Notes under the pieces: model-generated | What the model saw: the letters and a program-made list of their open reading frames with translations, nothing else | What the model was told of the DNA's origin: nothing | Database searches by the model: none | Origin: Malacoraja senta | Lineage: Eukaryota | Reading direction: 5' to 3' | Length of the DNA stretch: 64,000 bases | Assembly (NCBI GenBank): GCA_038087875.1 | Contig: CM075987.1 | Coordinates: 25,732,001 to 25,796,000 of the forward strand | In this document: positions 3,873 to 63,143 of the stretch, piece after piece | Position numbering within the stretch: position 1 is the stretch's first letter | Layout: the number at the start of each line of letters is the position of its first letter | Made by a program: the position numbers and the translations under genes

Positions 3873-4003
3873 TGTGTAGGTAGGAACTGTAGAAGCTGGT
3901 TGAAACTGAAGATAGACACAAAATGCTGGAGTAACTCATTGGGGCAGGCAGCATCTTCGGAGTGATGGAATGGGTGACGTTACAGGTCGAGACCCTTCTT
4001 CAG
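3873..4003 (-). mobile_element. Penelope-like 3' module with hammerhead-like motif
   Basis: Reverse complement reads ctgaagaagggtctcgacctgtaacgtcacc...gagttactccagc, matching the 3' UTR of the GIY-YIG element at 53193-54603. Confidence 0.75.
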
Positions 4004-4386
4004 ATGGAGGGAGTGCAGCGTAGGTACACAAGGTTAATTCCCGGGATGGTGGGACTGTCATATGCTGAGAGAATGGAGCGACTGGGCTTGTATACTCTGG
4101 AATGTAGGATGAGGGGGGATCTTATTGAAACATATAAGATTGTTAAGGGTTTGGACACGCTAGAGGCAGGAAACATGTTCCCGATGTTGGGGTGTCCAGA
4201 ACCAGGGGCCACAGTTTAAGAATAAGGGGTAAGCCATTTAGAACGGAGATGAGGAAACACTTTTTCACACAGAGAGTGGTGAGTCTGTGGAATTCTCTTC
4301 CCCAGGGGGTGGTGGAGGCAGGTTCTCTGGATGCTTTCAAGAGAAAGCTAGACAGGGCTCTTGAAGATAGCAGAGTCAGGGGATAT

Positions 4387-5876
4387 AGAAACATAGAAAC
4401 ATAGAAAAGAAGTGCAGGAGTAGGCCATTCGGCCCTTTGAGCCTGCACCGCCATTCAATATGATCATGGCTGATCATCCAACTCAGTATCCTGTACCTGC
4501 CTTCTCTCCATACCCCCTGATCCCTTTAGCCACAAGTGCCACATCTAACTCCCTCTTAAATATAGCCAATGAACTGGCCTCAACTACCTTCTGTGGCAGA
4601 GAATTCCATAGATTCACCACTCTCTGTGTGAAAAATGATTTTCTCATCTCGGTCCTTATCCTTAAACTGTGACCCCTTGTTCTGGACTTCCCCAACATCG
4701 GGAACAATCTTCCTGCATCTAGCCTGTCCAACCCCTTAAGAATCTTTTCTATAAGATCCCCCCTCAATCTTCTAAATTCTAGCGAGTACAAGTCGAGTCT
4801 ATCCAGTCTTTCTTCATATTAAAGTCCTGCCATCCCAGGAATCAGTCTGGTGAACCTTCTCTGTACTCCCTCTATGGCAAGAATATCTTTCCTCAGATTC
4901 GGTGACGAAAACTGTACGCAATACTCCAGGTGTGGTCTCACCAAGACCCTGTACAACTGCAGTAGAACCTCCCTGCTTGGTTCTTGGTTCTTGGTCCTCC
5001 AAATGGAATTTAAACTGGAGGTGGTGGAGGGAGGACTTAAGCCAGAAAGGGTTTTTGGGAAGAAAGAGCTACCTTAAATATAGTTGCATCTGGTTGGGTA
5101 ACTAAAGTAGGGTGGAGATTATTCCATGCTTTAATTGTGCGGGGGAAGAATGAATTGCTGTACACATCTGTCTTGGTAGCTGGAATCACAAATTGGATCG
5201 AATGCCCTCGTCTGCTCCTAATTGGTTTGGGTTTGGTGTAGGTCTTGTAATCTATGTCGAGCTGACCATTTAACATTTTGTAAAAACAGGTCAAACGGTG
5301 AGCTTCACGTCTGTCTTGGAGAGGGTTCCACCCCAGAGAATTCAGAAGTTTGGTAACACTCGCTTCTCTCTCATAGGTGTTAGTAACAAATCGAGCTGCC
5401 TGTCTTTGGACACGTTCGATGGAAGAAATGTTTTTATTTGTGTATGGGTCCCATGCTGCAACTGCGTAGTCCAAATGAGGTCTAACGAGGGTGAAATATA
5501 GCTTCTCCTTGACAGCTCTTATACTCAAATCCTTTTGCTATGAATGCTAACATACCATTCGCTTTCTTCACTGCCTGCTGCACCTGCATGCCTACTTTCA
5601 ATGACTGGTGTACCATGACACCCAGATCTCGTTGCATCTCCCCTTTTCCTAATCGGCCACCATTCAGATAATAGTCTACTTTCCTGTTTTTGCCACCAAA
5701 GTGGATAAGCTCACATTTATCCACATTATACTGCATCTGCCATGCCTTTGCCCACTCACCCAGCCTATCCAAGTCACCTTGCAGCCTCCTAGCATCCTCC
5801 TCACAGCTAACACTGCCCCCCAGCTTCGTGTCATCCGCAAACTTGGAGATGTTGCATTCAATTCCCTCATCCAGAT
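4387..5876 (-). mobile_element. CR1 LINE 3' fragment (RT C-terminus), itself interrupted
   Basis: ORFs 5482..5772 and 4483..4791 closely match the CR1 ORF2 C-terminus; (ATAGAAAC)n tail on the plus strand. Confidence 0.9.
4978..5514 (-). mobile_element. L2-group (Daphne/Kiri-like) LINE 3' fragment
   Basis: VRPHLDYAVAAWDPY...IERVQRQAARFV...SFFPRTIKAWNNL C-terminus; (CCAAGAA)n tail; inserted at gct in the CR1. Confidence 0.75.
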
Positions 5877-6606
5877 ATGAGGAGAAGGCAGGAACGGGGC
5901 ACTGATTGTGGATGATCAGCGATGATCACATTGAAGAGCCGAATGGCCTACTCCTGCCCCTATTGTCTATTGTCTATTTTCACCCATTCCTTCTCACCGG
6001 AGTTGCTGCCTGTCTCGCTGAGTCAACCCTCTGCTGATGTTCAGTATCAAAAGATATCCCAAGGAGATTCAATAAGATCAGGTCACTTTTTACATTGTGC
6101 TTGCAACATAATTTATTTTAGTTTAGTTTAGAGAGACGGCCCTTCGGCCCACTGTACCGGCAATAGAATTTCCAGGTTCCCTAGGAATGGAGAATTTCAA
6201 CGTTTCCCAGCCCTTTAGTGAAGAAACTTCTTTCCCCCTGTCATGAATAGTGTCTGTATCGCTGCCCTGGCCTCAGTTAGAGTAAACATCCCTGCATCTG
6301 GCAGGTTAAGTCCCGTAAGTATTTTCTATGTTTCAGTAAGCTTGATTTTCACGCTTTACAGAATACAGTTCCAGCCTATTCAATTTCTCCTCATGGCAGA
6401 TGGGATCAGTTTAATTTGGCATTGTGATCTGCACAGACATCATGGGCCCATGGACCTGTACTTGTGCTAAACTGTTCTACATTCTTTATGGCCAACCTGT
6501 CATCCCTGGAACTGAACTAGTGGTTCACTCTATCGGCATGAACATCCTCTCATTGTAAAGAGATCAAAGCTGTACACAACACTCCGAGTGCAATCTCAAC
6601 CCATTC

Positions 6607-7400
6607 AGTTTTAGTTTAGTTTAGTTTAGTTTAGATTAGAGATGCAGCGCGGAAACAGGCCCTTCGGCCCACCAAGTCCGCACTGGCCAGCAATCCCCGT
6701 GCATTAACACCGCCCTCCATACACTACGTACACAATTTTACATTCATACCAAGCCAATTAAAGGGGCTGTCCCACTGTGGCGACCTAATCCACGAGTTCA
6801 GAAGAGTTTGCCCTCGACTCATACTCGCAGCATAGGCGACACAGGGTCCTAGGAGGTCTTTGTAACTCTCCTTCATGCTCGACAGTAGTCCCGCGTACTC
6901 GAGGGCTCAGCTAGGCCGCGGTGTATTTTTCAACATGTTGAAAAATGCCCGCGAGTGAAAAAAGGTCGCCATGGAAAAAATCGATATTTTTTTAACTCGT
7001 AGGTTTAGTCGAAGTAGGTCGTAGTTGGCCGGCATGTTTGTCGTACATAATCGAGGGTAGTCGAAGGTAGTCGTAGATTGTCTTCATCATAGTCGAAGGG
7101 AGGTTGAAGGAGATCGAAGGAGATCGAAGGAGGTCTTCTTCACTCTCCACTATTCGGTGTCCATTTTTCCCGAAGCTAGTCGTACTAGTCATAGCTAGTC
7201 GAAGCTGGTCTTCTACATAGTCGAAGGAGGTCTTCAACATGACACTTTTTCAAACTCTCCTAAACTCTTCTAAACTCGCCAATTAGGTCGCCGCGGTCGG
7301 ACAGCCACTTCACCGACAAACCTGTATGTCTTTGAGTGTGGGAGGAGACCGAAGACCTAGGAGAAAACCCACGCAGGTCACGGGGAGAACGTACAAACAA
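6607..7400 (-). mobile_element. V-SINE (HE1-like), interrupted by a MITE
   Basis: (TTTAG)n tail, aaacaggcccttcggccc, and V-domain on the reverse strand. Confidence 0.82.
6762..7309. mobile_element. PIF/Harbinger-type MITE, family B
   Basis: Ends aggggctgtcccactgtggcgacctaat / attaggtcgccgcggtcggacagccact; TAA/TCA flanks; internal cgaagg/cgtag repeats; sister copy at 43208-43646. Confidence 0.82.
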
Positions 7401-8412
7401 TTACAATATTCCTTACTTGTATTTCTCATTGTTCTTATAAGAAAGTTTAAATGTACTTGTCCTCTTGATACTTTATATTACTTGCATGTTAGTCCTCAGT
7501 AACCTTTGTAACCACGCACCTCGATTATTTTAATCTTCAACTCTACCCAATTTGCCTTCAGATAACAATATATTCTGTTCTCTGTTATCTCAACCAAAGT
7601 AGTAATTTCTCACTTTTCAATACCACATGCCTATACCCTCATCCTTGCGCACTTGGATTAATTCAGCATCTCTGGAGAAATGGACGATCTGAAGAAAGGT
7701 TCCAACTCAAAGCATCACTCATCATTTTCCCCCAGAAATGCTGCCTGATCCGCTGAGTTACTCCAGCACTTTGTGTCTTTTCCTGCGGTGAGTCCCACTA
7801 ATGTTTTTACCTTTGCAAGCACTTAGTTACGTAGCATCTAATTTGATCTTTTTAAAAATAAATTCCCATAACTTGGCCCATTTACTGTTGGACTTTAGCA
7901 TTTGTTGTCCATCTATTTAATTTACAATTACTCTCAGTTCCCTTTCCTGCTTCCTTAATCCCCGTTGCTCGTAAGTTGACATTTAACTGATGTGGTATGA
8001 AAATGGAAATCTTTGTTCAAAGTTAAAAATTGGAAAATGCAATCCGCGATGGTCTTGTTTATGCGAATTTATCAAAGTCATCTAATCTGTCACCATATGT
8101 TGAATAAATTCTCTCATCATCATAACTCACTTAAGTCCTATCGTTTTCGTCAAGATTGATAGGATGCAAGTCTCATCTGCCAGCAGCAATATATGAATTA
8201 GTACAAGCAGCCATAATCTAGTTCCTCGGGGAAATGGATCAGTTCAAAACTAGTCAAAATTCAAGATAACTGGTAAGGAAAGTATTTGACATATTTTGAT
8301 GGGTTATTAATCTTTATTTGACATATTGTTCAGAACTGGTTTTGAATGCAGGAGTAAAGAGGTCTTACTGAAAATTACATAGGACCATGGTGAGGCTGTG
8401 ATGAGAATACTG

Positions 8413-8815
8413 TAGATAGACACAAAACGCTGGAGTAACTCAGCGGGACAGACAGCATCTCTGGAGAGAAGGAATGGGTGACGTTTCCGGTCGAGACCCT
8501 TCATCAGACTGAAGACTGGAGTGCGAAGAAATGTCTCAACCCGAAACGCCACCCATTCCTTCTCTCTCCAGAGATGCTGCCTGTCCTGCTGAGTTACTCC
8601 AGCGTTTTGTGCATATCTTCCAGCATCTGCAGTTCAAAGGTTCAAAGGTCAGTTTATTGTCACGTGTACCAATTAAGGCACAGTGAAACTCAAATTACCG
8701 TACAACCATACTAAATAAAAGCAACCAGACACACAACAACATAAAAGTTAACATATTCCTCACTGTGATGGAAGGCAATAAAGCCCAATCTTCGTCCTCA
8801 GTTCCTCCCGACACG
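8413..8815. mobile_element. Head-to-head twin Penelope 3' modules (with a secondary insert), inside an old CR1 relic
   Basis: Inverted arms about 8416-8510 and 8520-8630; 11-bp TSD tgagaatactg at 8402-8412 and 8816-8826. Confidence 0.75.
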
Positions 8816-9726: not shown

Positions 9727-9750
9727 AAGTGATAGTGAATAAACTAAAGT

Positions 9751-12018: not shown

Positions 12019-12441
12019 TGCTGCACCCGCTGAGTTTCTCCAGCATTTTTGTGTACCTTCGATTTTCCAGCATCTGCAGTTCCTTCTTTAACATTTTGTC
12101 TACTCCACTGCGAAATCTCGTCAAGGTATGCCTACTTTGAAGAAGTTCTCCTCCTCTCTCCGGAGACTGTTCCACAACCAACTCTCTAACTGCCCCATCT
12201 CTGTGATAACATTGAATTCTCCCAATTCTGCTAGCCCTTGCTGTCCCCTCCCCTTCATCAGCCATCTGGTTGTCTCCTCCCGTCCCCCAGCCCTCGGGCT
12301 CCTCCTCCGCCTTTTTCCTTTTTTCCTTTCTTCTCCACACCCCCTATCAGTCTGAAGAAGGGTTTCGGCCCGAAACGTTACCTATTTCCTTCGCTCCATA
12401 GATGCTGCTGCACCCGCTGAGTTTCTCCAGCATTTTTGTGT
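12019..12441 (+). mobile_element. Internally deleted Penelope-like element with two partial terminal repeats
   Basis: 14-bp TSD acctcctatagaac (12005-12018, 12442-12455); partial module, then ATG-initiated segment, then ORF end NIEFSQFC*, then hammerhead module. Confidence 0.8.
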
Positions 12442-12903
12442 ACCTCCTATAGAACCCTTTGATTCAGTAAAGTTCAGTAAAGAGATCGGGAATCTGGCAT
12501 CATGGCTTGAGAATAAAACCCAGCCTTTAACATCCGCATAATGAAAGAGTTGGTGTTGTCCTACGGAACAGGGGTGCAGGAGAGGTGAACACAACCCTGT
12601 CTTCTTCAACAACACTGGTAGAGATGGCTTCTGGACGTGACTGGCAAACCTCAGATTAGGCTGCCATGAAGTGTCATAAAATGTTCTCACGCTGTTCCTC
12701 AATACTGGTTTGTCTTAAGGTTGTGAGCTCAGTCCCAAATACACAAAATCTATATATAAACTTCAAGCTATTTTTTCTTTTCAACCCACTCTGTCACCTT
12801 ATCAATAACTTGCTTAACTTTGTTAAGCAGAATTTGTCTTTAAAAAGTCTATGTTGGTGTTCCTCAACTGATCCATACTTATCCAAGTAACTGATATTTC
12901 TGT

Positions 12904-13109
12904 GGAAGAAGGGTCTGAAGAAGGGTTCTGTGTCTGAAGAAGGGTTTCGGCCCGAAACGTTTCCTATTTCCTTCGCTGAGTCTGAAGAAGGGTTTCGGCC
13001 CGAAACGTTGCCTATTTCCTTCGCTCCATAGATGCTGCTGCACCCGCTGAGTTTCTCCAGCATTTTTGTGTACCTTCGATTTTCCAGCATCTGCAGTTCC
13101 TTCTTTAAC
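12904..13109 (+). mobile_element. Penelope 3' module with tandem hammerhead-like motifs
   Basis: 14-bp TSD actgatatttctgt (12890-12903, 13110-13123); two full CTGAAGA-agggtttcggccc-GAAACGTT cores. Confidence 0.85.
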
Positions 13110-16492: not shown

Positions 16493-16647
16493 ATCCAACT
16501 GCAAATTTATGCTCTTTACAGAGTGAAATCTCATTTGCTGGTTTTCAAGAATCACTAATATGCAACCATTCCTAATGATGCTGTTTCTTTTTTGCCTTAG
16601 ACACAGAATAAAGTGACCTGTGATGAGAATGCAGCGACTGTTATAGA

Positions 16648-16822
16648 CTGTCACAAAATGCTGGAGCAACTCAGCGGGACGGGCAGCATCTCTGGGGAGA
16701 AGGAATGGGTAACGTTTCGGGTCGAGACCCTTCTTCAGTCTGGAGAAGGTTCTGGGCCCGAAACGTCACCCATTTTGTGTCTATCTGCGGTGTACACCAA
16801 CATCTGCAGTTCCTTCCTACAC
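16648..16822. mobile_element. Head-to-head twin Penelope 3' modules
   Basis: aacgtttcgggtcgagacccttcttcag immediately followed by tctggagaaggttctgggcccgaaacgtcacc. Confidence 0.75.
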
Positions 16823-27235: not shown

Positions 27236-27332
27236 GAGGTAGACAAAAGTGCTGGAGAAACTCAGCGGGTGCAGCAGCATCTATGGAGCGAAGGAAATAG
27301 GCAACGTTTCGGGCCGAAACCCTTCTTCAGAC
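27236..27332 (-). mobile_element. Short Penelope 3' module with hammerhead-like motif
   Basis: 14-bp TSD tcagtttagtatag (27222-27235, 27333-27346); sense 5' end is gtCTGAAGA. Confidence 0.85.
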
Positions 27333-27346
27333 TCAGTTTAGTATAG

Positions 27347-32292: not shown

Positions 32293-32515
32293 GGGAAGGA
32301 ACTGCAGATGCTGGTTTATACTGAAGACAGACACAAAGTGCTGGAGCAACTCCGCGGGTCAGGCAGCATCTCTGGAGAGAAGGAACAGGCAATGTTTCGG
32401 GTCCGAACCCTTCTTAGCAGTCTGAAGGAAGGTTCTGACCCAAAATGTCACCTGTTCCTTTTCTCCAGAGATGCTGCCTGACCCGCTGAGTTGCTCCAGC
32501 ACTTTGTGTCTGTCT
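32293..32515. mobile_element. Head-to-head twin Penelope 3' modules
   Basis: Arms about 32325-32415 and 32420-32515 are reverse complements. Confidence 0.8.
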
Positions 32516-33772
32516 GTGGACTCAATCCCTTATGTTTCCCACTCCCATGAGCCCTATACCTTGAGGAAAACAACAACAAAAAGTGCCGGAGAAACTCAGC
32601 GAGTCAGGCAGCTGCTGTAAAGGTGATGTTTCAGGTTTGGACCCTTTCTCCAGGCGATTCTAGTAGGAGGGAGCACAACTGCAACAGAGATGGGGACAGG
32701 ACTGGAAAAAGAGATGGGAATGGGCGGGTGATGGGTGGACACAAAAATATACAGGTCCTGACCTCCTTCCACACCTCCCCTTCAAGTCAAGTCAAGTCAA
32801 CTTTATTTGTCACATACACACATACAAGATGTGCAGTGAAATTAAAGTGGCAACGCCTGCGGATAGTGCAAAAAACAACAGCACAACAGAACAGAACAGA
32901 ACCAGTATTTACATTTTAGAAAAAAAATTAAAAAAGACACAACATGTGTCTTTGTCCTTTGTCTCCTTTTCATCTCCAGCCTTTGTCCACCCATCTGCCA
33001 AGCAAACCTCCCCCCTACCCCCTACCCCCCCTCTCTCCTCTCCACCTCTCCCCACCCCCCCCCCCCTCACCTGTATCCAACTCTAATAATAATAATAATA
33101 ATATATTTTATTGTCATTGCACAGAGGTACAACGAGATTTGGTATGCAGCTTCCATCTGATGTAATAACAATTAGCTAAAAATTTAGACACCCAGAGAAA
33201 CAAGATTAAAAACCAAGATAGACACTTAAATCTGTAGTAACTCAGCGGGTCAGGCAGCATCTTTGGAGAGAAGGAATAGGTGACGTTTTGGGTTCAGACC
33301 ATTCTTTAGACTGAGAGTCAAGGGAGAAGGGAACTGGAGCAATGATAGATGAGGGAAAAGATTACAAAGCAGCTTGTAGTTCTCAAAATGAAAGTAGAAA
33401 TAAAGATGTATTAAATAAATATATTGATCTGTGCCAGGGAAATGCAAATTAACGATAGTCATCAGAAATCTGGCAGTGCAGTCAGTATCTTTCCCCAGCT
33501 CGATGCCAATAAAAACAGGTGTCATCTTCTGTAACCCATGCATATTAAAACAGTGCTGCAATGATAATGTTATGCCTTTCCTAACTGTCAACATATCATC
33601 ATTTTTAATGCAGACAAAGTTTCACCCAGAAATTGTTGGCAAAATGATCACAACATTTAACAATGCTGCAAAATGACGGATGATTTTTTCGATGCTGGAA
33701 AGGAAATGAACATTGCAGCTGGGTGTTGGCGTTAAAATAACACTCTTAGCAACAAGTGCTAATGTCCTCAGT

Positions 33773-44190: not shown

Positions 44191-46678
44191 GACCCTTAAT
44201 GTCGGAAGCATTGATGGGGGATATTGACCCAAAAGATACTTATACTTTTATAATATCTAATAACAAAATCCAGTAATCCAGATGGCCAGTAATGTTTAAA
44301 AAAGAATCGCAGACACTGGTAAAATCGAAGGTAGACACAAAATGCTGTAGAAGGGTCTGAAGAAGGGTCTCGACCCGAAATGCCGCCAATTCCTTCTCTC
44401 CATAGATGCTGTCTGACCCGCTGAGTTACTCCAGCATGTTGTGTCTACCTTGGCTAGTAATCTTATTCAAGTTGACTATTTTTTTTATTTAGGAAGGAAC
44501 TACAGATGTCGGTTTAAACCGAAGATAGCGCAAAATGCTGGAGTAACTCAGCGGGTCAGGCAGCATCTCTGGGGAAAAGAAGCAGGCGATGTTGCAGGTC
44601 AAGACCCTTCTTCAAACCCTTCAGGCATGGTAGCCCCGGCATTCCCTCTCTCTCTATCCCTCCCCACCCAAGTCGCACCAGCTTCTCATTTTCATCCAAC
44701 AAACAGCTTTCAACAATTTTCATTTTCATCCAACAACAGCCTGTTTCCTTTATGCTTGTTAATTTTTTGCATATCTTTCATTCATTGTTCTTTATCTCTC
44801 TACATCATCGTCTATATCATCCTTACCCCCTAACCAGTCTGACGAAGGGTCTCGATCCGTAACACCACCCTTTCCTTGAAACGATAAATAAAGTTCTGAA
44901 GCATTTCCACATCAGAGGGTGGTGAATCTGTGGAATTCTTTGCCACGGAAGGCTGTGGAGGCCCTCAGTGGATATTTTTAAGGCGCAGCTCGTTGGATTC
45001 TTGATCAGTACGGGTGTCAGGGGTTATGGGGAGAAGGCAGGAGCATGGGACTAGGGGGAAGTATTTTTTTTTTTTTTTTTAATTTAAAAAAAATGTTCGG
45101 CACGGACTTGAAGGGCCGAGATGGCCTGTTTCCGTGCTGTAATGGTTATATGGTTATATGGTTATATGGGGTCTGGAGGGAGAGATAGATCAGCCACAAC
45201 GAAGGGTCTTGACCCAAAACGTCACCCATTCCTTCTCTCCAGAGATGCCGCCTGTCCTGCTGAGTTACTCCAGCTTTATCTATCTTCAGTTTAAACCAAC
45301 ATCTGCTGTTCCTTCCTACACATGTATTTCTCATTGTCTCTTTCATTCTAGGCATGACGTTACGTTACCACGTTACAGACAGACAGGTCCACAAGGTAAA
45401 TTCTTGATTTACTTTAACAAAACTCTTCATAGAAATTCAGATCAGTTTAGTTTATTGTCACTTGTATCGAGGTACAGAGAAAACCTTTTGTTGCGTGCTA
45501 TCCAGTCAGCGGAAAGACAATACATGATTACAATTGAGACAATTACACTGTACAGAGAACTGTACACTGTACACTGTTCGCTCCATAGATGCTGCTGCAC
45601 CCGCTGAGTTTCTCCAGCACTTTTGTCTACCTTCGATTTTCCAGCATCTGCAGTTCCTTCTTATACACTGTACAGATACACGGTAAGGGAATAACATTTA
45701 GTGCAAGGTAACGCCAGCTGCTCTCTGGTTGTGTTTCACTTGTGTACACATGACAATAAACTAAACTCAAACTCAATCCCATGTACACTGCAATGTATAC
45801 TGTTTGCAGGCTGCCAGCCTCAGTCTGCTTGATCTCTCCTCTCCAGCGTGTGTTCTGACCTGGTCAGTGTTTCTCTCTGCTCAGCAGTACACACCGGGTC
45901 ACAGCCAATTTGTTCCGACAATGTTGGTAGATCTCAGAAGACATCAGTTTGCCATCCATCATCACACAAACTTGAACTGCAACTGACCTGCTCCATTTCC
46001 CATCCATTATCTCCCCGCGACTGAAGCCAGAGCTCATGTAAGGTGAAATTGCTCCATAAGTCAGCAAGACGCACAAAGTCATAGAAAAGTTGTTCCTCCT
46101 GATCTGACTCAAATGAAATCTTATACCCCGGTCACAATTTCATGACAGTTCATAAATATACCTAGGAAGTTTCTGGGCAATGCATTTAAGATGGTGTGGT
46201 GTCTTTCAATTCGTGGTAAGTTTAGTTTAGTTTCGGAAAGAACTGCGCATGCTGCTTTAAATCGAAGGTAGACACAAAATGCTGGAGTAACTCAGCGGGA
46301 CAGACAGCACCTCTGGAGCGATGCTGCCTGTCCCACTGAGTTACTCCAGAATTGTGTGTCTAGTTTAGCTTAGAGATACAGCACAGAAACAGGCCCTTCT
46401 GCCCACTGAGTTCGCGCCGACCAGCGATCCCCGCACATTAACACTACCTGACATAAACTAGGGACAATTTTACATTCATACCAAGCCAATTAACCCACAA
46501 ACATGTACGTCGTTGGAGTGATAAGGAATATCGTTTGGTGCAGGGTAAAGTCCGATCAAAGTCCATAGAAGTTCAGGACCGCTCTCTGGTTGCGATAGAT
46601 TGGTTCAGTTGCCTGATAACATCTGGGAGGAAATTGTCCCTGAGCTTCGCTCGGTCACCTGAGCATAATTTCTTGTTT

Positions 46679-52669: not shown

Positions 52670-53192
52670 AGGATAGACAGTCGGAACATTTTTTCCCAGA
52701 GTGGAAACATCCAATACTAGAGGCCATAGCTCTAAGATGAGAGGGGAAAGCTTAATGGAGATGCGTGAGGCCATTTTTTTACACAGAGGGAGCCCGGAAC
52801 GCGCTGCCAGGGGTGGCGGTAGAGGCAGATCCAATCGTGGCGTATAAGAGGCTTTTGGATAGGCACGTGGAAATAGAGGGATATGGGTCATGTACGGGTA
52901 GAAGAGATCAGTTTAACTTGGCCACATGTTCAACACAAACATTATGGGCCGAAGGGCCTGTTCCTGTGCTGTACTGTTCTATATCCGATATTCTAGGTTA
53001 TATGTCTAAAATAGGCGGCATGGTGGCGTAGCGATAGAGTTGCTGCCTCACAGCGCCAGAGACCTGGGCTCAATACTGACTGCAGGTGCTGTCTGTACGG
53101 AGTTTGTACATTCTCCCCGTGACCTGCGTGGGTTTTCTACGGGTGCTCCGGTTTCCTCCCACTCTCCAAAGACCAGCAGGTTTGTAGGTTAA

Positions 53193-54603
53193 AGAAGGAA
53201 CTGCAGATGCTGGATAATCGAAGGTACACAAAAATGCTGGAGAAACTCAGCGGGTGCAGCAGCATCTATGGAGCGAAGGAAATAGGTAACGTTTCGGGCC
53301 GAAACCCTTCTTCAGACTGATAGGGGGTGGGGAGAAGAAAGGAAAAAAGGACAAAGGCGGAGGAGGAGCCCGAGGGCTGGGGGAGGGGAGGAGACAACCA
53401 GGTGGCTGATGAAGGGGAGGGGACAGCAAGGGCTAGCAGAATTGGGAGAATTCAATGTTCAAGCCCCCAGGATGTAGACTGCCCAAGCGGAATATGAGGT
53501 GCATTTCCTCCAATTTACGGTGTTGCTCGCTGTGGCCATGGAGGAGACCCAGGACAGAGAGGTCAGATACGGAATGGGAGGGGGAGTTGAAGTGCTGAGC
53601 CACCGGGAGTTCAAGTTGGTTATTGCGGACCGACCGGAGGTGTTCGGCGAAACGATCGCCAAGCCTCCGCTTATTCTCACCGATGTATATCAGCTGGCAT
53701 CTAGAGCAGCGAATGCAATAGATGAGGTTGGAGGAGATGCAGGTGAACCTCTGTCGCACCTGGAACGACTGCTTGGGTCCTTGAATGGAGTAGAGGGGGG
53801 AGGTGAAGGGACAAGTGTTGCATCTCTTGCGGTTGCAAGGGAAAGTACCAGGGGAGGGGGTGGTATGGGAGGGAAGGGAAGAATTGACAAGGTAGTTACG
53901 GAGGGAGCGGTCTTTGCGGAAGGCAGACATGGGGGGAGATGGGAAGATGTGGCAAGTGGTGGGGTCACGTTGGAGGTGGCGGAACTGACGGAGGATCACT
54001 TGTTGTATGTGACGGCTGGTGGGGTGAAAGGTGAGGACTAGGGGGACTCTGCCCTTGTTGTGAGTGGGGGGATGGGGAGAGAGAGCAGTGTTGCAGGGTA
54101 TGGCAGAGACCCTGGTGCGAGCCTCATCTATGGTGGAGGAGGGGAACCCCCGTTCCCTGAAGAATGAGGACATTTCAGATGCCCTGGTGTGGAACGCCTC
54201 ATCCTGGGAGCAGATGCGGCGTAGACGGAGGAATTGGGAGTGGGGGATGGAGTCCTTACAGGAAGCAGGGTGGGAAGAAGTGTAGTCCAGATAGCCATGG
54301 GAGTCGGTAGGTTTGTAGTGGATGTCGGTAAGGAGTCTATCACCTGCGATGGAGATAGTGAGGTCAAGGAATGGTAGGGAAGTGTCGGAAATGGTCCAGG
54401 TGTATTTGAGTGCCGGATGGAAGTTGGTGGTGAAGCGGATGAAGTCAGTCAGTTGTGTGTGGGTGCAGGATGTGGCACCAAAACAATCATCGATGTAGCG
54501 GAGGTAGAGGTCGGGGATGGGGCCCTGGTACACATTGAACAAGCATTGTTCTACGTACCCGACAAAGAGGCAGGCGTAGCTGGGGCCCATGCGTGTGCCC
54601 ATA
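53193..54603 (-). mobile_element. 5'-truncated Penelope-like element
   Basis: 15-bp TSD aggtttgtaggttaa (53178-53192, 54610-54624); RT plus GIY-YIG ORF; hammerhead module at about 53285-53318. Confidence 0.93.
53433..54602 (-). CDS. Penelope-like RT (C-terminal part) plus GIY-YIG endonuclease, 5'-truncated, open frame
   Basis: MGTRMGPSYA, YLRYIDD, LPFLDL, YKPTD..YLDYTSSHP, CNRKRCNTC, NLIYCIRC...YIGE. Confidence 0.9.
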   Translation of the reverse strand: MGTRMGPSYACLFVGYVEQCLFNVYQGPIPDLYLRYIDDCFGATSCTHTQLTDFIRFTTNFHPALKYTWTISDTSLPFLDLTISIAGDRLLTDIHYKPTDSHGYLDYTSSHPASCKDSIPHSQFLRLRRICSQDEAFHTRASEMSSFFRERGFPSSTIDEARTRVSAIPCNTALSPHPPTHNKGRVPLVLTFHPTSRHIQQVILRQFRHLQRDPTTCHIFPSPPMSAFRKDRSLRNYLVNSSLPSHTTPSPGTFPCNRKRCNTCPFTSPLYSIQGPKQSFQVRQRFTCISSNLIYCIRCSRCQLIYIGENKRRLGDRFAEHLRSVRNNQLELPVAQHFNSPSHSVSDLSVLGLLHGHSEQHRKLEEMHLIFRLGSLHPGGLNIEFSQFC

Positions 54604-55076
54604 GTTTGTAGGTTTGTAGGTTAACTGGCTTCTGTTAAAATTGTAAATTGTCCCAAGTGTGTGTGGGATAGTGTTCCTGTACGGGGTGATCGCTGGTCGG
54701 CGCGGACTCGCGTGGTCTGCAGGGCCTGTTTCCGCGCTGTATCTCCAAAGTCCAAGGTAACATTGACTCCTGCAGGCTGCAGCGTGCCGCGGGGGAGGAT
54801 GAAGTGACTTTTCCCAAGGACGTGCGATGCTTTTACATCATTTGCTCATGTTATCGACCTTCCTCAGCCTGCCCAGATATATGACCCAAATAAAAGTCAA
54901 AGGGTTTCTCCTGCCAATGTGCTTTGCGTTGCCAGGTCCATGAATTAATATACACCGCAGGTAATTGGTGCTGAATTAATTTCATTCTGCATGTGAACTT
55001 AATCGAATGTGAGAAACACAACAGAGAAATGAATGAGATTGAATTTGTCATCCTCGGCCAATATGGCAGTACACAA

Positions 55077-55619: not shown

Positions 55620-56809
55620 TTGCTTTCCTGTACATTGCTACGACTGCAAATGGCAGCGGTTTGCTTAAGTTGGTAATATATATTGCCGCCCAGCTCAAAC
55701 TGTTTGAAAAGATTAAGAAGGTGGAGTTCTGAAGCTTTTCCACATCAGAGGGTGGTGAATCTGTGGAATTCTTTGCCACTGAAGGCTGTGGAGGCCAAGT
55801 CAGTGGATATTTTTAAGGGGCAGCTAGATAGATTCTTGATTAGTACGGGTGTCAGGGGTTATGGGGAGAAGGCAGGAGAATGGGGTTGAGGGGGAGAGAT
55901 AGATCAGCCATGATGAAGGGTCTCGACCCAAAACGTCAACCGTTCCTTCCCTCCAGAGATGCTGCCTGCCCCCCTGAGTTACTCCAGGTTTTGGTGTCTA
56001 CCTTCGGTTTAAACCAGCATCTGCAGTTCCTCCTTGCACAGCCATGATTGAATGGCAGAGTAGACTTGATGGGCAGAGGTATCCACTGGCACCAGAGGGA
56101 TCCACTGGCATTTCTAAGTCTCTTCAATGCAGTTCAATATTTGATTGTATCTGTCACTTTGCATTGATATTTGATTGCTTGTTGAGATGGGGGGGTGGGG
56201 GGGGGGGGATGGAAGGTTAGGTCTGCAGGTGTGAGGGGGTGGTTGGGGAATGAGGAGAGCTGGGGGAGAGAGGAGCTGAGGAAGGGTGGAGGAGGGGGAG
56301 GACTAGACGAGTGTGAAGATGGGGAGAGGGCAGAGACGCTGCCTGTCCCACTGAGTTACTCCAGCATTTTGTGTCTATCTTCGGTGGCAATGGAGAGAAC
56401 TAGGGGGAGCAATGAGTTGGAGACAGGTGGGTGTGGGTTGAGATGGGGATGGAGATAGAGTGGACTTAGGAACGCTGGTGATGAGTAGGAATGAGCTGCA
56501 GATGCTGGTTTAAACCTGACACAAAATGCTGGAGTACCTCAGTCTGTCTGAAGAAGGGTCTCGCCCCGAAACGTCACCCATTCCTTCCCTCCGGTGAGTT
56601 ACTCCAGCATTTTATGTCTATCTTTGGAGAGAAGGAGGGTCGGGGAGTCTGGATTTTGGGTCCATAGAAGCTGCAGCACTTTACAAATTCCTTTGTAACT
56701 CATTACTCGTAACATCCAGGACAAGGATCATCTTAACTGAGATGATTGAAATAACATCCAGCACCTCGTACCACAGCCCAAATTAAAGTCAACATAATCA
56801 AAGACTTAA

Positions 56810-57042
56810 GATCGATACAAAAAGCTGGAGTAACTCAGCGGGTCAGGCAGCATCTCTGGAGAAAAGGAATAGGTGACGTTTCGGGTTGAGACCCTTCTTC
56901 AGACCCTTCAGTCTGAAGACGTGTTTCGACCTGAAACGTTACCTATTCTGTTTCTCCAGAGATGTTGCCTGTCCCGCTGAGCCACAGCAGAATTTCGTGT
57001 CTATCTTCAGTGTAAACCAGCATCTGCAGTTCCTTCCTGCAC
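56810..57042. mobile_element. Head-to-head twin Penelope 3' modules
   Basis: gacgtttcgggttgagacccttcttcagac, then gtctgaagacgtgtttcgacctgaaacgtt. Confidence 0.8.
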
Positions 57043-57075: not shown

Positions 57076-57208
57076 TTTGAGTCTGAAGAAGGGGTCTCGA
57101 CCCGAAACGTCACCTATTCCTTCGCTCCATAGATGCTGCCTCACCCGCTGAGTTTCTCCAGCATTTTTGTCTACCTTCGATTTTCCAGCATCTGCAGTTC
57201 TTTCTCAC
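57076..57208 (+). mobile_element. Short Penelope 3' module with hammerhead-like motif
   Basis: 16-bp TSD acaggaatctataaca (57060-57075, 57209-57224); CTGAAGA-aggggtctcgaccc-GAAACGTC. Confidence 0.87.
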
Positions 57209-58695: not shown

Positions 58696-58739
58696 ATGAG
58701 TTATACAGATAGCGACACTCAACAGATGACAGTGAAACT

Positions 58740-60691: not shown

Positions 60692-60819
60692 TTAATAAAG
60701 AACTGCAGATGCTGGTAAAATCAAAGGTAGATACGAAATGCTGGAGAAACTCAGCGGGTGAGGCAGCATCTTTGGAGAGAAGGAATTGGCGACGTTTCAG
60801 GTCGAGAACCTTCTTCAGA
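60692..60819 (-). mobile_element. Short Penelope 3' module
   Basis: 9-bp TSD ccaacatgt (60683-60691, 60820-60828); sense 5' end at tCTGAAGA. Confidence 0.82.
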
Positions 60820-61478: not shown

Positions 61479-61794
61479 AGCCCTGCCCACGGTACGAGTT
61501 CATTCCAAGAGCTCTCCCGAGTTTGCCCTGATTCGAACTCGGAGATTTACGGTAATGGCCACTCGTCGGTACCCGGGGCTCTCGTGGACATTTTTCAACG
61601 TGTTGAAAAATCTTCACGAGTCTTCCCGTGCTTACCTGCCGTTAGCGAGTCTTCTCGAGTACCTGCCATTCGCGCTAAGAGACGCCCCCGAGCTCCGACG
61701 TACCCGCTACGTTCATTCTCCGTGCTTACCACGAGTTTGATTTTTTTAAACTCGGGAGAGCTCTTGGAATGAACTTGTCCCGTGGGACAGGGCT
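61479..61794. mobile_element. PIF/Harbinger-type MITE, family C
   Basis: Same body and TIRs as 15982-16294. Confidence 0.85.
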
Positions 61795-61938
61795 ATAAAA
61801 ACACAATTGTTCCTAGCGTGTGCGATAGTGCTAGTGTATCGCTGTCCAGCGCGTACTCGGTGGGACAGAGGGCCTGCTTCCACTCTATCTCTAAAGACAT
61901 CCATCTCTCTGTATCTCTGCAAATATGCAGAGCATGTA

Positions 61939-62481
61939 GAGGAAGGAACTGCAGATGCTGGTTTACACCGCAGTGACACCAAAATGCTGGGGTAACTCAG
62001 CGGGGACAGGCGGCATCTCTGGAGAGAAGGAACGCGTGACGTTTCGGGTCGAGACCCTTCTTCAGCCTCAACCCGAAACGTCACCCATTCTTTCTCTCCA
62101 CAGATGCTGCCTGTACCCGCTGAGTAATACCCCTGTCCCACGGTGCGAGTTCATTCCAAGTGCTCTCCCGAGTTTAAAAAAAATCAAACTCGTGGTAAGC
62201 ACGGAGAATGAACGTAGCGGGTACGTCGGAGCTCGGGGACGTCTCTTAGCGGCTCGTAACGCTAACGGCAGGTACTCGGGAAGACTCGCTAACGGCAGGT
62301 AAGCACGGGGAGACTCGTGAAGATTTTTCAACATGATGAAAAATATCCACGAGAGCCCCGAGTACCGACGAGCGGCCATTACCGTAAATCTCCGAGTTCG
62401 AATCGGTGCAAACTCGGGAGAACTCGTGGAATGAACTCGTACCATGGGACAGGGCTTTTACTCCAGCATTTGGAGTCTGTC
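61939..62481. mobile_element. Head-to-head twin Penelope 3' modules with a nested MITE
   Basis: 13-bp TSD tgcagagcatgta (61926-61938, 62482-62494). Confidence 0.82.
62129..62456. mobile_element. PIF/Harbinger-type MITE, family C (opposite orientation)
   Basis: Splits gctgag-TTA-ctccagc of the Penelope module. Confidence 0.85.
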
Positions 62482-63016
62482 TGCAGAGCATGTATATATA
62501 TATACAGTATGTATGTATATTCCACTACAAAGGAAATAAGCCTCTTAAATTCCCACTTGTCTGTGGCTGAATATTGACAGATAGCTTGGGTAAGTCAATG
62601 GTTTTTCCTAAATGCAATATTTTTCACTTCAAATGACTTTAATTATTAAATCTGTTATTCACCATTTAAGGTCATTTACTAATTTACAGAGCCTTTCCCT
62701 CAGCAATCCATATCTGCATATTTGATTCTGTTGTTTTTAAAATGTTGCATTTGGAGAATTGCAACATATTCATAGCACCATGAACACCATTATTTTCAAG
62801 AGCAAGAGCAAGAGCTGTGGATCTGAATTGATATCGTTTCAATTATTCATGAATTAGCTTATTAAATCAATACTTTACCTTCTTTGATATTGAAATGCTG
62901 GAAACATTTTTCACTGATCCCGGTTTTAACATTCAAGTCTTGTAAGTCAAGATTTGCTTATTCAGATCACAAAATACTGATGTCACGACCGTGACTTCAT
63001 GATCACATGTTGTGTT

Positions 63017-63143
63017 AAAGAAGGAACTGCAGATGCTGGAAAATCGAAGGTAGACAAAAATGCTGGAGAAACTCAGCGGATGCAGCAGCATCTATGGAGC
63101 GAAGGAAATAGGCAACGTTTCGGGCCGAAACCCTTCTTCAGAC
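63017..63143 (-). mobile_element. Short Penelope 3' module with hammerhead-like motif
   Basis: Sense gtCTGAAGAagggtttcggcccGAAACGTTgcc. Confidence 0.82.

What the first reader, a model, noticed from the sequence alone, without database searches (positions are those of the whole stretch)
3873..63143. More than 30 short Penelope-derived modules carrying a minimal hammerhead core, many starting just before CTGAAGA
Seen: a 100-140-bp module recurs on both strands: CTGAAGA-A-GGGT(CTCG or TTCG)(A or G)CCC-GAAA-CG-T(C or T), then a conserved 3' stretch. It is the 3' UTR of the RT/GIY-YIG element at 53193-54603. Stem II varies compatibly (U-A with a CUCG loop versus U-G with a UUCG loop). Stand-alone copies have their own 9-16-bp TSDs (12904-13109, 27236-27332, 57076-57208, 60692-60819), and the last three begin within a few nt upstream of the core. 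Established: Penelope-like elements carry minimal type I hammerheads with a palindromic, vestigial stem III that is thought to work as a dimer; an extra A after A9 occurs in natural hammerheads. Inference: the biased 5' boundary points to either a discrete short RNA (retrozyme-like) or a strong RT stop. The boundary lies upstream of the core rather than at the predicted GUC/GUU cut, and stem I is only about 2-4 bp, so catalytic activity is uncertain.
Basis: partly seen in the sequence, partly recalled or inferred. Interest (0 to 1): 0.72.

Follow-up and report, generated by a model that had tools for sequence, protein, structure and literature searches.

The report
Penelope-element tails carrying mini hammerheads
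These repeats are the short tail ends of a very abundant Penelope-like jumping gene, each carrying a minimal hammerhead ribozyme motif; this kind of element is already known, but here the copies stop unusually sharply just in front of the ribozyme.

Summary
The 26-nt core occurs 24 times in the window at up to 3 mismatches, against 0 in shuffles. A profile of the 161-nt module finds 58 pieces. The exact core occurs 43,554 times in the 1.94-Gb genome. The module is the terminal segment of a young Penelope-like element (PLE). A full copy has a 1212-codon ORF with RT, DKG, a CX4CX2C linker and GIY-YIG. The module runs from the 5' edge of a minimal type-I hammerhead to one of two 3' ends 35 nt apart. 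That is the published PLE "tail"/internal-RT-start signature.

The 5' bias is also real. Adding TCAGT upstream of the core keeps 44.2% of exact cores. Adding 5 nt downstream keeps 88.8%. The predicted cleavage site is no comparable hot spot (90.6% kept over 2 nt).

All hammerhead features were described in 2014. The stem II "covariation" is a lineage-linked, one-sided change.

Additions from this work: head-to-head pairs (40 of 95 core-bearing copies), and tandem arrays of deletion derivatives. Two arrays join exactly at the predicted cut and two at the core's 5' edge.

The cause of the hot spot is unresolved. I favour run-off at a discrete RNA 5' end (about 0.45) over an RT stop.

Verdict: a known kind with a new detail.

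The parts
53188..54604 (-). 5'-truncated copy (1.4 kb) of the young 'A' subfamily Penelope-like element: the end of the RT, the linker, GIY-YIG, the 3'UTR, the hammerhead module and the 35-nt tail. It is flanked by a CTACAAACC duplication.
   Evidence: 98% identical to L027 3504-4885 plus 946-1001. ORF listed.
53433..54620 (-). Open frame of 395 aa covering the C-terminal part of the RT, the CX4CX2C linker and the GIY-YIG nuclease.
   Evidence: The genome holds copies 97-98% identical, with open frames up to 1224 aa. The full frame gives RVT_1 and GIY-YIG, both under Pfam's cut-offs.
53290..53315 (-). Minimal hammerhead core of that copy: CUGAAGA-A-GGGU UUCG GCCC-GAAA-CG. The predicted cut is after GUU, between 53288 and 53287.
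   Evidence: Exact match. The anatomy is read from the sequence and compared with Cervera & De la Pena 2014.
12904..13109 (+). Stand-alone module with a stuttered 5' end (two partial re-copies of the first about 12 nt plus a 48-nt partial unit) and the long (tail) 3' end. 14-bp target-site duplication.
27236..27332 (-). Stand-alone module that starts at GT before CTGAAGA and has the short 3' end. 14-bp target-site duplication. It is inserted in the AAACT-rich tail of another repeat.
57076..57208 (+). Stand-alone module that starts 7 nt upstream of the core and has the long 3' end. 16-bp target-site duplication.
60692..60819 (-). Stand-alone module that starts 1-2 nt upstream of the core and has the long 3' end. 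9-bp target-site duplication.
55910..56038 (+). Stand-alone module that starts inside CTGAAGA (microhomology with the target). 10-bp duplication CAGCCATGAT.
12332..12455 (+). Longer copy that continues upstream into the pyrimidine-rich 3'UTR (...CCCCCTATCAGT|CTGAAGA). Short 3' end.
16629..16822 (.). Head-to-head inverted pair. Both arms begin at the core, with a 1-nt centre (CTTCAG-T-CTGGAG).
8406..8639 (.). Head-to-head inverted pair. The arms begin a few nt upstream of the cores, with a 15-nt stuttered spacer.
32294..32525 (.). Head-to-head inverted pair joined at the core start.
56803..57042 (.). Head-to-head inverted pair with a 10-nt stutter (ACCCTTCAGT) between the cores.
61937..62126 (.). 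Inverted pair. One arm starts exactly at C of CTGAAGA. The partner is truncated inside stem II.
44295..44476 (.). Inverted pair. The plus arm starts at the core behind a duplicated AGAAGGGT. The partner is truncated near module position 102.
63014..63154 (-). Stand-alone module of the young subfamily that starts at GT before the core and has the long 3' end. It is inserted at the tail of the same foreign repeat as 27236-27332.

Best explanation
WHAT IT IS (about 0.9 sure).
The modules are minimal insertions of a very abundant, recently active Penelope-like element of the Neptune type. [quoted passage not shown]

Each module is the stretch of element RNA that runs from the 5' edge of the minimal hammerhead to one of two internal reverse-transcription start sites. 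These sites lie about 95 and about 130 nt downstream of CUGA. The 35-nt difference between them is the PLE 'tail'. In the full element the tail runs straight on into the 5'UTR and the ORF. The unit is therefore circularly permuted, as in the Anolis element PAc.

HOW THE COPIES ARISE.
- Shown by anatomy: target-primed reverse transcription leaves 8-16-bp target duplications.
- Inferred from PAc biochemistry: both strands of the cut target can prime, which gives the frequent head-to-head pairs.

WHY THEY START JUST BEFORE CUGAAGA (inferred, about 0.45; the confidence given for this explanation is for this step).
Many template RNAs begin there. The conserved TCAGTC directly upstream reads like a Pol II initiator, with A at -3 as +1. 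It sits behind a pyrimidine-rich pseudo-LTR with a GC box. An RT that starts at the first start site downstream then runs off the RNA end after about 100-135 nt.

ROLE OF THE HAMMERHEAD.
It does not set this boundary. It is a weak, dimer-type motif that is cut only occasionally. Rare tandem arrays whose unit junction lies exactly at GUU|A look like footprints of such cleaved RNAs.
For: Identity.
- ORF architecture.
- 115,376 first-look protein candidates; the 105 scored are 97-100% identical, with frames up to 1224 aa.
- In full copy L027 the tail is contiguous with the 5'UTR and ATG.
- Two 3' ends 35 nt apart: profile-end bins 126-135 hold 41 hits and 156-160 hold 71 of 193 hits. This matches the optional 30-40-bp tail and the two adjacent internal RT starts of PAc.
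- Inverted and partial-tandem copies are listed as PLE hallmarks.

Hot spot.
- 44.2% of 43,554 exact cores keep TCAGT, against 88.8% that keep 5 nt on the 3' side.
- 19 of 32 stand-alone copies start with GT.
- Starts bounded by target duplications fall at -7 to +2.
- In RNA and DNA reads of three other organisms, loose ends pile up at 53317-53321 and at the two 3' ends.

RNA 5' end rather than a uniform RT stop.
- Of 20 non-array copies that contain hammerhead, tail and 5'UTR, 15 run on at least 83 nt upstream. Only 4 end at the hot spot (1 plain, 3 inverted). Among all core-bearing copies, 72 of 95 are stand-alone or inverted.
- 5' stutters that re-copy the first 9-12 nt occur at 12904, 44357 and 56902, and at position 193789 of the joined 264-kb stretch.
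- In eight tandem arrays the 5' unit boundary recurs at only a few places: at the ribozyme cut twice, which is a true RNA end; at T-1 to T+2 twice; and at -35 twice, plus L055.
- A transcription start inside the pseudo-LTR is reported for Penelope and Chlamys-3 (passage).
Against: - No RNA 5' end was observed. The one read-laying run found no place where many molecules begin or end. 92-93% of the reads laid from the two bulk RNA-seq runs (78% from the single-cell run) run on into unlike sequence, and all three RNA runs came from other species.
- The initiator match is a 6-nt motif with about 1% chance per site. Its consensus is recalled, not tested.
- There is no clear cap-derived extra G. GGT makes up 3,530 of the 7,195 copies with a non-A base before GT. 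A-to-G transitions or a subfamily could explain that.
- Boundaries are spread over about 9 nt and often show microhomology with the target.
- The choice of 3' end is independent of the 5' class: tail versus short is 12/16 in stand-alone copies and 7/12 in longer ones, Fisher p = 0.77. A context effect that I had predicted is therefore absent.
- L027 itself starts at module position 103, not at -3.
- The classes come from a simple scripted rule, and a few rows are debatable (12982, 15053, and 225700, which is a duplicate).
Confidence: 0.45

Rival explanations
1. The hot spot is made at the DNA-synthesis level, not by an RNA end. Either the RT tends to fall off or switch template when it leaves the purine-rich, structured hammerhead (CUGAAGAAGGG...) and enters the long polypyrimidine 3'UTR. 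Or second-strand synthesis is primed from an RNase-H-resistant purine-rich remnant, and the rest of the cDNA is trimmed.
For: - The boundary coincides with a sharp switch from a purine run to a tract that is more than 80% pyrimidine.
- Boundaries are fuzzy (-7 to +2) and show target microhomology.
- Stutters use the repeated GUCU at -2 and in stem II.
- No RNA end was seen.
- The predicted folds pair GAAGAAGGG with CCUAUUUCCUUC, so the region is structured.
Against: - cDNAs coming from the 5'UTR side cross the same site without stopping in 15 of 20 cases. A uniform stop probability of 0.5-0.75 does not fit that.
- RT pauses are expected at the 3' base of a structure, not after it has been copied.
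- A primer-remnant model predicts a boundary at the 3' side of the purine run.
Confidence: 0.25
2. The stand-alone modules are copies of a discrete small non-autonomous RNA, retrozyme-like or SINE-like. It would be transcribed from modules or tandem arrays, processed by the hammerhead and perhaps circularised, and then mobilised in trans by the PLE enzyme.
For: - Tandem arrays of 138-384-bp deletion derivatives of this element exist. Six of the eight fetched carry the hammerhead in every unit.
- Vertebrate non-LTR retrozymes are proposed to be pseudo-LTR derivatives of PLEs.
- Metazoan retrozymes give circular RNAs.
Against: - Stand-alone modules span the predicted cut instead of starting at it. 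Only 9.4% of 46,993 A-type copies lose the two bases before the cut.
- Of 154 copies that reach module position 100, 3 start at positions 58-60, the same as neighbouring bins.
- Stand-alone modules are dispersed with their own target duplications, not in tandem.
- RNA reads show the module embedded in unlike flanks.
- I saw no internal Pol III box arrangement; that was a visual check only.
Confidence: 0.08
3. The boundary is only apparent. The hammerhead module is conserved among subfamilies while the upstream 3'UTRs differ, so homology seems to stop at the core.
For: - Upstream sequence is unalignable between subfamilies, while the module is 84-94% conserved.
- Local profile alignments smear the 5' ends.
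Against: - Exact target duplications abut the boundary in at least 8 copies.
- Genome-wide loss of the subfamily-invariant TCAGT is five times the 3' control.
- Inverted-pair and array junctions fall at the same place.
Confidence: 0.03

Closest known systems
Minimal hammerheads (min-HHR) in the pseudo-LTRs of metazoan Penelope-like elements (Cervera & De la Pena 2014, PMC4209133; parts 1-2 of 4 read: abstract, introduction, results, discussion and part of the methods)
   Same: - Type I motif with the CUGANGA and GAAA cores.
[quoted passage not shown]
- No helix III, only the palindromic 15.2-16.2 (ACGU).
- A short helix I (2 bp is reported for D. virilis).
- Thousands of mostly single motifs, ascribed to truncated PLEs.
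- Pairs on opposite strands 100-700 bp apart.
   Different: - Here helix II is 4 bp with a tetraloop, whereas Schistosoma has 7-8 bp.
- The copy number is far higher: 43,554 exact cores.
- The paper does not describe a preferred 5' end of the truncated copies at the ribozyme's edge; this rests on the parts I read.
PAc, the Poseidon PLE of Anolis carolinensis (Frangieh et al. 2024, PMC11167929; main text read)
   Same: - The hammerhead lies just upstream of the region where RT initiates internally at two adjacent sites. That produces the optional 30-40-bp tail.
- Tandem, circularly permuted organisation.
- Both target strands are cut and extended, which fits the inverted pairs.
- Unprocessed RNA is the main template, and no reads end at the ribozyme cut.
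   Different: - In PAc the ORF starts inside stem II and RT starts 111-118 nt into the ORF. Here the two main start sites lie about 70 and 35 nt upstream of the ATG.
- Nothing here was tested biochemically.
Non-LTR retrozymes of animals (Cervera & de la Pena 2020, PMC7229834, passages; Li, Clavereau & Pollet 2026 preprint 10.64898/2026.07.22.740005, part 1 of the results and the whole discussion)
   Same: - Head-to-tail arrays of 207-384-bp units, each with a type I hammerhead, derived from the PLE pseudo-LTR region (L031, L032, L035-L038).
- They co-occur with the autonomous PLE.
   Different: - The window's modules are dispersed single insertions, not tandem units.
- The ribozyme is the minimal type, not the canonical one with loop-loop contacts.
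- Two arrays (L033, L034) lack the ribozyme core altogether.
- No circular RNA was shown.
General PLE insertion architecture (Craig et al. 2021, PMC8557442; passages)
   Same: - Heavy 5' truncation.
- Partial tandems that form pseudo-LTRs.
- An inverted 5'-truncated copy next to the 5' end.
- A 30-40-bp tail.
- Insertion bias for simple repeats.
- A CX2-5CxxC linker in Neptune.
   Different: The passages I saw make no statement about a discrete truncation point.
Twin priming of LINE-1 and ribozymes at the 5' ends of R2/L1Tc elements (recalled, not looked up; HDV-like ribozymes in non-LTR elements are mentioned)
   Same: - Inverted structures arise from priming on both target strands.
- A ribozyme sits near the RNA 5' end of a retroelement.
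   Different: - Here both arms carry their own 3' end, so these are two cDNAs and not an internal re-priming on one RNA.
- A type I hammerhead would cut itself off the downstream RNA, unlike HDV-like ribozymes.

Membership tests
Penelope-like elements (EN+, Neptune type) | Single ORF with an RT followed by a C-terminal GIY-YIG nuclease | tested here: met
   In the L027 frame, RVT_1 scores E 6.7e-6 (26.4 bits, cut-off 29.6) at residues 708-877, and GIY-YIG scores E 0.0015 (19.3 bits, cut-off 22.6) at residues 1128-1161. Both are in the right order but below Pfam's curated cut-offs. The nearest Atlas clusters (scores 0.97-0.98) carry HTH_animal, DUF8422, RVT_1 and GIY-YIG. YIDD and LIY...YIG are read.
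Penelope-like elements (EN+, Neptune type) | DKG motif, and a Zn-finger-like CX2-5CxxC linker between RT and EN (Neptune/Nematis) | tested here: met
   IKPADKGG and CNRKRCNTC are read in the translation. The motif definitions come from passages of Craig 2021.
Penelope-like elements (EN+, Neptune type) | Pseudo-LTR/partial tandem organisation, inverted 5'-truncated copies and an optional 30-40-bp tail | tested here: met
   - 15 of 20 5'UTR-bearing copies are preceded by a further 3'UTR plus hammerhead.
- 40 of 95 core-bearing copies lie in inverted pairs.
- There are two 3' ends 35 nt apart.
Penelope-like elements (EN+, Neptune type) | RT groups with PLE and telomerase RTs in a phylogeny | not tested
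   No tree was built. phmmer against PDB chains found nothing at E up to 1.
Hammerhead ribozyme, minimal type I (PLE min-HHR) | Catalytic boxes CUGANGA and GAAA, with an NUH triplet before the cut | tested here: met
   CUGAAGA ... GAAA-CG-UC or -UU is present in all exact cores. Both GUC and GUU are allowed triplets; that rule is recalled.
Hammerhead ribozyme, minimal type I (PLE min-HHR) | Helix II closed by G10.1-C11.1, an extra nucleotide between 9 and 10.1, and palindromic 15.2-16.2 in place of helix III | tested here: met
   A-GGGU(CUCG/UUCG)(A/G)CCC and GAAA-CG-U are read. The criteria come from Cervera 2014.
Hammerhead ribozyme, minimal type I (PLE min-HHR) | Helix I of about 4-6 bp | tested here: not met
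   Only U2.1-A/G1.1 and G2.2-C1.2 can pair. The same was reported for the D. virilis PLE motif.
Hammerhead ribozyme, minimal type I (PLE min-HHR) | Match to a curated hammerhead covariance model | tested here: not met
   There are 0 Rfam matches at gathering score in the window. No hammerhead family appears at E up to 10 in L031 plus L035. This is expected for motifs without helix III.
Hammerhead ribozyme, minimal type I (PLE min-HHR) | Self-cleavage at the predicted site | not testable with these tools
   - Indirect only: two tandem arrays (L033, L034) join exactly at GUU|ACCUAUUUCC.
- No RNA ends were seen.
- The thermodynamic MFE favours a competing fold.
Non-LTR retrozymes | Head-to-tail tandem repeats of about 150-450 bp, each with a type I hammerhead | tested here: not met
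   Not met by the window's dispersed modules; the only tandem there is the 48-nt stutter at 12934/12982. Met elsewhere in the genome by L031, L032 and L035-L038.
Non-LTR retrozymes | Expression as unit-length linear and circular RNAs | not testable with these tools
   Only poly(A)/oligo-dT and single-cell RNA runs of other species were available.

The most novel reading that the evidence does not exclude
The pseudo-LTR of this element would start transcription at an initiator that abuts the ribozyme. Every primary transcript would then begin with a capped leader of about 31 nt that is itself the whole minimal hammerhead.

Cleavage, helped by dimerisation or by the element's protein, would remove the cap and the ribozyme. 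That would convert an mRNA into an uncapped 5'-OH template.

The genome would record both states. Tens of thousands of run-off copies start at -3/-2. Rarer arrays have units that start exactly at the cut, made by repeated jumps from the RNA 5' end back to the internal RT start site.

If so, the ribozyme has a concrete job, and the tandem/pseudo-LTR architecture of PLEs has a simple mechanism.
Probability: 0.2. Interest if true: 0.7.

Novelty: new member of a known kind. Interest (0 to 1): 0.42.

Why it matters
The function of the hammerheads that all canonical Penelope-like elements carry is still unknown. The only biochemical study found cleavage dispensable in vitro and saw no cleaved RNA in vivo.

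This genome offers a very large natural data set:
- more than 43,000 near-identical cores,
- about 400 copies that reach the 5'UTR,
- several independent tandem arrays.

In it, three kinds of molecular ends can be read directly from insertion junctions: the RT start sites, a sharp 5' end at the ribozyme's edge, and a minor 5' end exactly at the predicted cut.

That turns two open questions into ones a single 5'-end-mapping experiment could settle. Where do PLE template RNAs begin? Is the ribozyme ever used in vivo?

Apart from this, the finding is an ordinary, already described class of repeat.

Tried and rejected
- Rfam found nothing at gathering score in the window. At relaxed threshold on two arrays it gave only chance rows and no hammerhead family.
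- Pfam on the window's 395-aa frame found 0 families at E up to 0.01. The full frame was needed.
- phmmer of the RT-EN half against PDB chains found nothing.
- No RNA holder was listed by the run search.
- The single read-laying run used 4 of the 24 listed runs. It gave no begin/end pile-ups and no splice-like joint at the boundary among the rows shown.
- A predicted RNA-RNA dimer through ACGU was not recovered as the MFE. The folds favour other pairings.
- The cap-G test by counts was inconclusive.
- The test for a link between 5' class and 3' end type showed no association.
- Three readings of the sequence before the core were considered and dropped:
  - a 3' splice site (pyrimidine tract plus CAG), as in D. 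virilis Penelope, because most stand-alone copies keep the G of that AG;
  - a second cleavage at the GUC formed by -2 to +1, because the ends lie at -2/-3 and not at +2;
  - a Pol III SINE with box B in stem II, because there is no room for box A and the copies' 3' ends lie beyond the T run.
- Automatic target-duplication calling gave few clear cases: 9 of 157 at 10 bp or more, against 1 in the shifted control. A wider search added some.
- Earlier-findings look-ups returned nothing.
- A whole-genome breakpoint histogram could not be made.

Full report
1. IS IT THERE?

The 26-nt pattern CTGAAGAAGGGTYTCGRCCCGAAACG matches 24 times in the window at up to 3 mismatches, on both strands. It matches 0 times in 100 dinucleotide-preserving shuffles. 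At up to 5 substitutions there are 29 matches.

I built a profile from 23 aligned copies, 161 positions long, with the core starting at position 31. It finds 58 hits or fragments in the window. In 264 kb (the window plus the adjoining 200 kb, L001-L020) it finds 193 hits.

The assembly is 1.94 Gb. The exact pattern occurs 43,554 times in it, and the reversed control occurs 0 times.

2. WHAT IS IT?

The window's RT/GIY-YIG piece lies at 53188-54604 on the minus strand. It is a 5'-truncated copy with its own CTACAAACC duplication.

Its protein has 115,376 first-look candidates in the genome. The 105 that were scored are 97-100% identical, with open frames up to 1224 aa.

One such copy is L027. 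It has an ATG-to-stop frame of 1212 codons containing IKPADKGG, YIDD, CNRKRCNTC and LIY...YIG. Pfam gives RVT_1 and then GIY-YIG, both just under their curated cut-offs. The nearest Atlas clusters carry the same families. This is the architecture of an EN+ Penelope-like element. The linker is the kind assigned to Neptune/Nematis (passages of Craig 2021). I built no RT tree.

In L027 the sequence after the stop runs as follows:
- a 119-nt pyrimidine-rich 3'UTR (4673-4791);
- the hammerhead core at 4792-4817;
- GUU, with the predicted cut after 4819;
- the rest of the module up to ...GTGTACCT at 4885, where the insertion ends.

The copy begins at 947 with the last 20 nt of that same module. These are followed by a 35-nt 'tail' (...TTCTTTAACAC), the 5'UTR, and the ATG at 1037. 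The tail is therefore contiguous with the 5'UTR. The module is the part of a circularly permuted unit that lies between the ribozyme and the place where copies end.

Genomic copies end at two places 35 nt apart. Profile-end bins 126-135 hold 41 hits and bins 156-160 hold 71, of 193 hits.

This is the published PLE signature. In the Anolis element PAc, RT starts internally at two adjacent sites downstream of the hammerhead. That gives an optional 30-40-bp tail (Frangieh 2024, main text; Craig 2021 passages).

3. THE HAMMERHEAD

Read against Cervera & De la Pena 2014 (parts 1-2 of 4 read: abstract, introduction, results, discussion and part of the methods), every feature is the described 'min-HHR':
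- CUGAAGA;
- an extra A between positions 9 and 10.1;
- a 4-bp helix II closed by G10.1-C11.1;
- GAAA;
- no helix III, only the palindrome A15.1-C-G-U16.1, which can pair only between two molecules;
- GUC or GUU before the cut;
- a 2-bp helix I.

Rfam's models do not see it.

The two stem II versions are subfamily markers. Among the first 100 genomic cores listed there are 51 CUCG/U-A, 44 UUCG/U-G, 5 UUCG/U-A and 0 CUCG/U-G (my count). The change is one-sided and compatible, not compensatory.

Among genomic copies the catalytic boxes are no better kept than another part of the module: 0.94 and 0.92 against 0.92 for positions 91-110. The CpG positions are the most decayed. That is what neutral decay after insertion gives.

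Predicted folds favour pairing of GAAGAAGGG with CCUAUUUCCUUC over the hammerhead fold. This agrees with the low, dimer- or protein-dependent activity reported for such motifs.

4. THE 5' BOUNDARY

A scripted rule sorted the 95 core-bearing copies in the 264 kb, after removal of a segmental duplicate. It gave three classes:
- 40 arms of head-to-head inverted pairs;
- 32 stand-alone copies with unrelated upstream sequence;
- 23 longer copies that continue into a 3'UTR.
A few rows are debatable: 12982, 15053 and 225700.

Of the 32 stand-alone copies, 19 have GT directly before CTGAAGA; chance is 1 in 16. Starts bounded by target duplications lie at -7, -6, -6, -2, -2 to +2, -1/-2 and 0/-2, with further ones at 0/+2 and about +5. 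They often show 1-4 nt of microhomology with the target.

Copies truncated further downstream are spread thinly. 66 of 154 start between profile positions 34 and 105. There is no excess at the predicted cut: 3 copies fall in positions 58-60.

Genome-wide counts for the 43,554 exact cores:

| Extension | Copies kept | Share |
|---|---|---|
| GT upstream | 35,158 | 80.7% |
| AGT upstream | 27,963 | 64.2% |
| CAGT upstream | 22,801 | 52.4% |
| TCAGT upstream | 19,258 | 44.2% |
| TYRCC downstream (control) | 38,669 | 88.8% |

The loss per upstream position is 10-20%, against about 2% per position in the downstream control. By my rough correction, about 40% of young copies end within 5 nt upstream of the core.

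At the predicted cut, 42,576 of 46,993 A-type copies keep the two bases before it (90.6%). This is at most a small excess over the control, and part of it may be the C/U variant at that position.

Reads from three other organisms, both RNA and DNA, show loose ends at the same places. These are 53188/53192 and 53220-53223 (the two 3' ends) and 53317-53321 (the 5' edge).

5. INVERTED PAIRS AND STUTTERS

In 10 pairs both arms begin at or within a few nt of the core. Some have a 1-nt centre, using the natural palindrome UCAG-U-CUGA. In about 19 further arms the partner is cut at positions 38-102.

Several 5' ends re-copy the first 9-12 nt. Examples are 12904, 44357 and 56902 in the window, and position 193789 of the joined 264-kb stretch. 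The re-copying uses the repeated GUCU at -2 and in stem II.

Both-strand cleavage and extension by PAc, and the 'inverted 5'-truncated copy' of PLEs, are the known counterparts.

6. TANDEM ARRAYS ELSEWHERE IN THE GENOME

A pattern joining stem II to the 5'UTR occurs 242 times. The tail/5'UTR junction occurs 403 times. The listings showed short-period arrays, and I fetched eight of them. I left unfetched at least three close pairs with spacings of 299, 961 and 2145 bp.

Each array unit is an internal-deletion derivative. It runs from a point X near the hammerhead, through the module, tail and 5'UTR, to a point Y. Y lies 3-100 nt into the ORF.

| Array | Unit (bp) | X, relative to C of CUGA | Carries the hammerhead core? 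|
|---|---|---|---|
| L031 | 384 | -129 | yes |
| L032 | 275 | -58 | yes |
| L037 | 254 | -35 | yes |
| L038 | 260 | -35/-34 | yes |
| L035 | 207 | -1 to +2 | yes |
| L036 | 219 | -1 to +2 | yes |
| L033 | 138 | exactly the predicted cut (GUU\|ACCUAUUUCC) | no |
| L034 | 165 | the predicted cut (1 nt ambiguous) | no |

One non-array copy, L055, also starts near -36.

X therefore recurs at three places, and one of them is the ribozyme's cut. Two independent arrays landing on that single phosphodiester is hard to get by chance. I read it as a genomic footprint of in vivo cleavage. This is an inference: each array is one event, later expanded.

7. WHAT SETS THE HOT SPOT?

The most telling result is. 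I looked at 20 non-array copies whose cDNA came from the 5'UTR side and crossed the hammerhead:
- 15 continue at least 83 nt into a further 3'UTR;
- 1 ends near -36;
- 4 end at the hot spot (1 plain, 3 inverted).

Among all core-bearing copies, 72 of 95 are stand-alone or inverted. Genome-wide, about half lose homology there. A stop that is a fixed property of the enzyme at this sequence should act alike in both sets.

A mixture of templates fits better, with some RNAs continuous across the site and many beginning at it. Three further points are consistent with this reading:
- The conserved TCAGTC reads like a Pol II initiator, with A-3 as +1.
- The -35 point reads like a TCT-type initiator. 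Both consensus motifs are recalled, and both are short.
- A transcription start inside the pseudo-LTR is reported for Penelope and Chlamys-3.

An RT that starts at the first start site of such an RNA would run off after 100-135 nt and leave exactly the module.

Against this reading:
- No RNA end was seen.
- There is no clear extra 5' G.
- 3' end choice does not depend on 5' class.
- The ends are spread over several nt.

I put the explanations at:
- run-off at an RNA 5' end: about 0.45;
- an RT or second-strand cause: about 0.25;
- a separate small mobile RNA: about 0.08;
- a mere conservation edge: about 0.03;
- something else: the rest.

8. COMPARISON AND VERDICT

The following are all in print:
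- the element, the ribozyme type and its dimer logic;
- the mass of single motifs from truncated copies;
- opposite-strand pairs;
- the tail and internal RT initiation;
- derivation of tandem 'retrozyme' repeats from PLE pseudo-LTRs.

Two things I did not find in the texts I read:
- a discrete 5' end of copies at the ribozyme's edge;
- array junctions at the cut.

I searched 'Penelope-like' + 'hammerhead' (37 papers), 'Penelope' + 'pLTR' + 'transcription start site' (3 papers), and 'hammerhead' + 'cleave RNA as dimers' (10 papers). I opened five papers in part. Supplements were not consulted and may hold relevant alignments.

The finding is a new member of a known kind, with one detail worth an experiment.

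Noticed in passing
G000 C1:27817150-27817650 (L033) and C1:381271150-381271600 (L034): Tandem arrays with 138-bp and 165-bp units made of module, tail, 5'UTR and the first codons, without the hammerhead core. The unit junction lies exactly at the predicted ribozyme cut (GUU|ACCUAUUUCC).
   Followed up: partly
G000 C1:28902300-28903500 (L031), C1:256828900-256830000 (L032), C6:39676700-39677300 (L035), C2:79144850-79145450 (L036), C1:231191550-231192300 (L037), C1:363286750-363287600 (L038): Retrozyme-like head-to-tail arrays with units of 384, 275, 207, 219, 254 and 260 bp. They are internal-deletion derivatives of the young PLE, and each unit has a hammerhead. The right-hand deletion ends cluster 45-100 nt into the ORF, around an AC-rich stretch (CCACACCCAAC). 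That recalls the AC-rich RT start of PAc.
   Followed up: partly
window 27333-27400 and 63142-63200; also positions 129002 and 144804 of the joined 264-kb stretch (L007, L009): 4 of 32 stand-alone modules sit directly behind the 3' end of another abundant repeat (...GGGCCTGTTTCCATGCTGTATCTCTAAACTAAA). This suggests a target preference for its A/T-rich AAACT tail.
   Followed up: no
G000 C1, e.g. 4429534/4429581, 4976480/4976527, 5119561/5119608 (listing); positions 106293 and 124757 of the joined stretch: A recurrent class of inverted pairs has its centre in the loop of stem II, with the two position-57 bases 18 nt apart. This is what snap-back priming at the stem II hairpin of the cDNA would give.
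   Followed up: no
Joined stretch about 137,000-182,400 and 188,200-233,700 (C11, about 25.869-25.914 and 25.920-25.966 Mb; L008-L017): A segmental duplication of about 45-50 kb. The same module copies recur with the same flanks about 50.6-51.5 kb apart.
   Followed up: no
G000 C1:3.87-4.04 Mb (listings): A long array with a period of about 2.45 kb (some steps 1.96 or 3.2 kb) that carries A-type modules in both orientations.
   Followed up: no
L028 (C1:233472600-233473300) and L029 (C19:1746970-1747670): Two independent long copies are 5'-truncated at nearly the same ORF position (L027 1158 and 1161). In L029 the end is joined head-to-head to an inverted ORF segment.
   Followed up: no
window 55043-55525 (+): A 160-aa open frame (...IERVQRQAARFVTNTY...) that looks like the C-terminal part of an unrelated non-LTR retrotransposon RT. 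This reading is from recall only.
   Followed up: no
window 53184-53330: In poly(A)/oligo-dT RNA-seq of two related organisms the module is covered about 100 times more deeply than the adjacent 3'UTR. Coverage is about equal in both read orientations. The reads come almost wholly from transcripts that run on into unlike sequence. The module is therefore a common passenger of host transcripts.
   Followed up: partly
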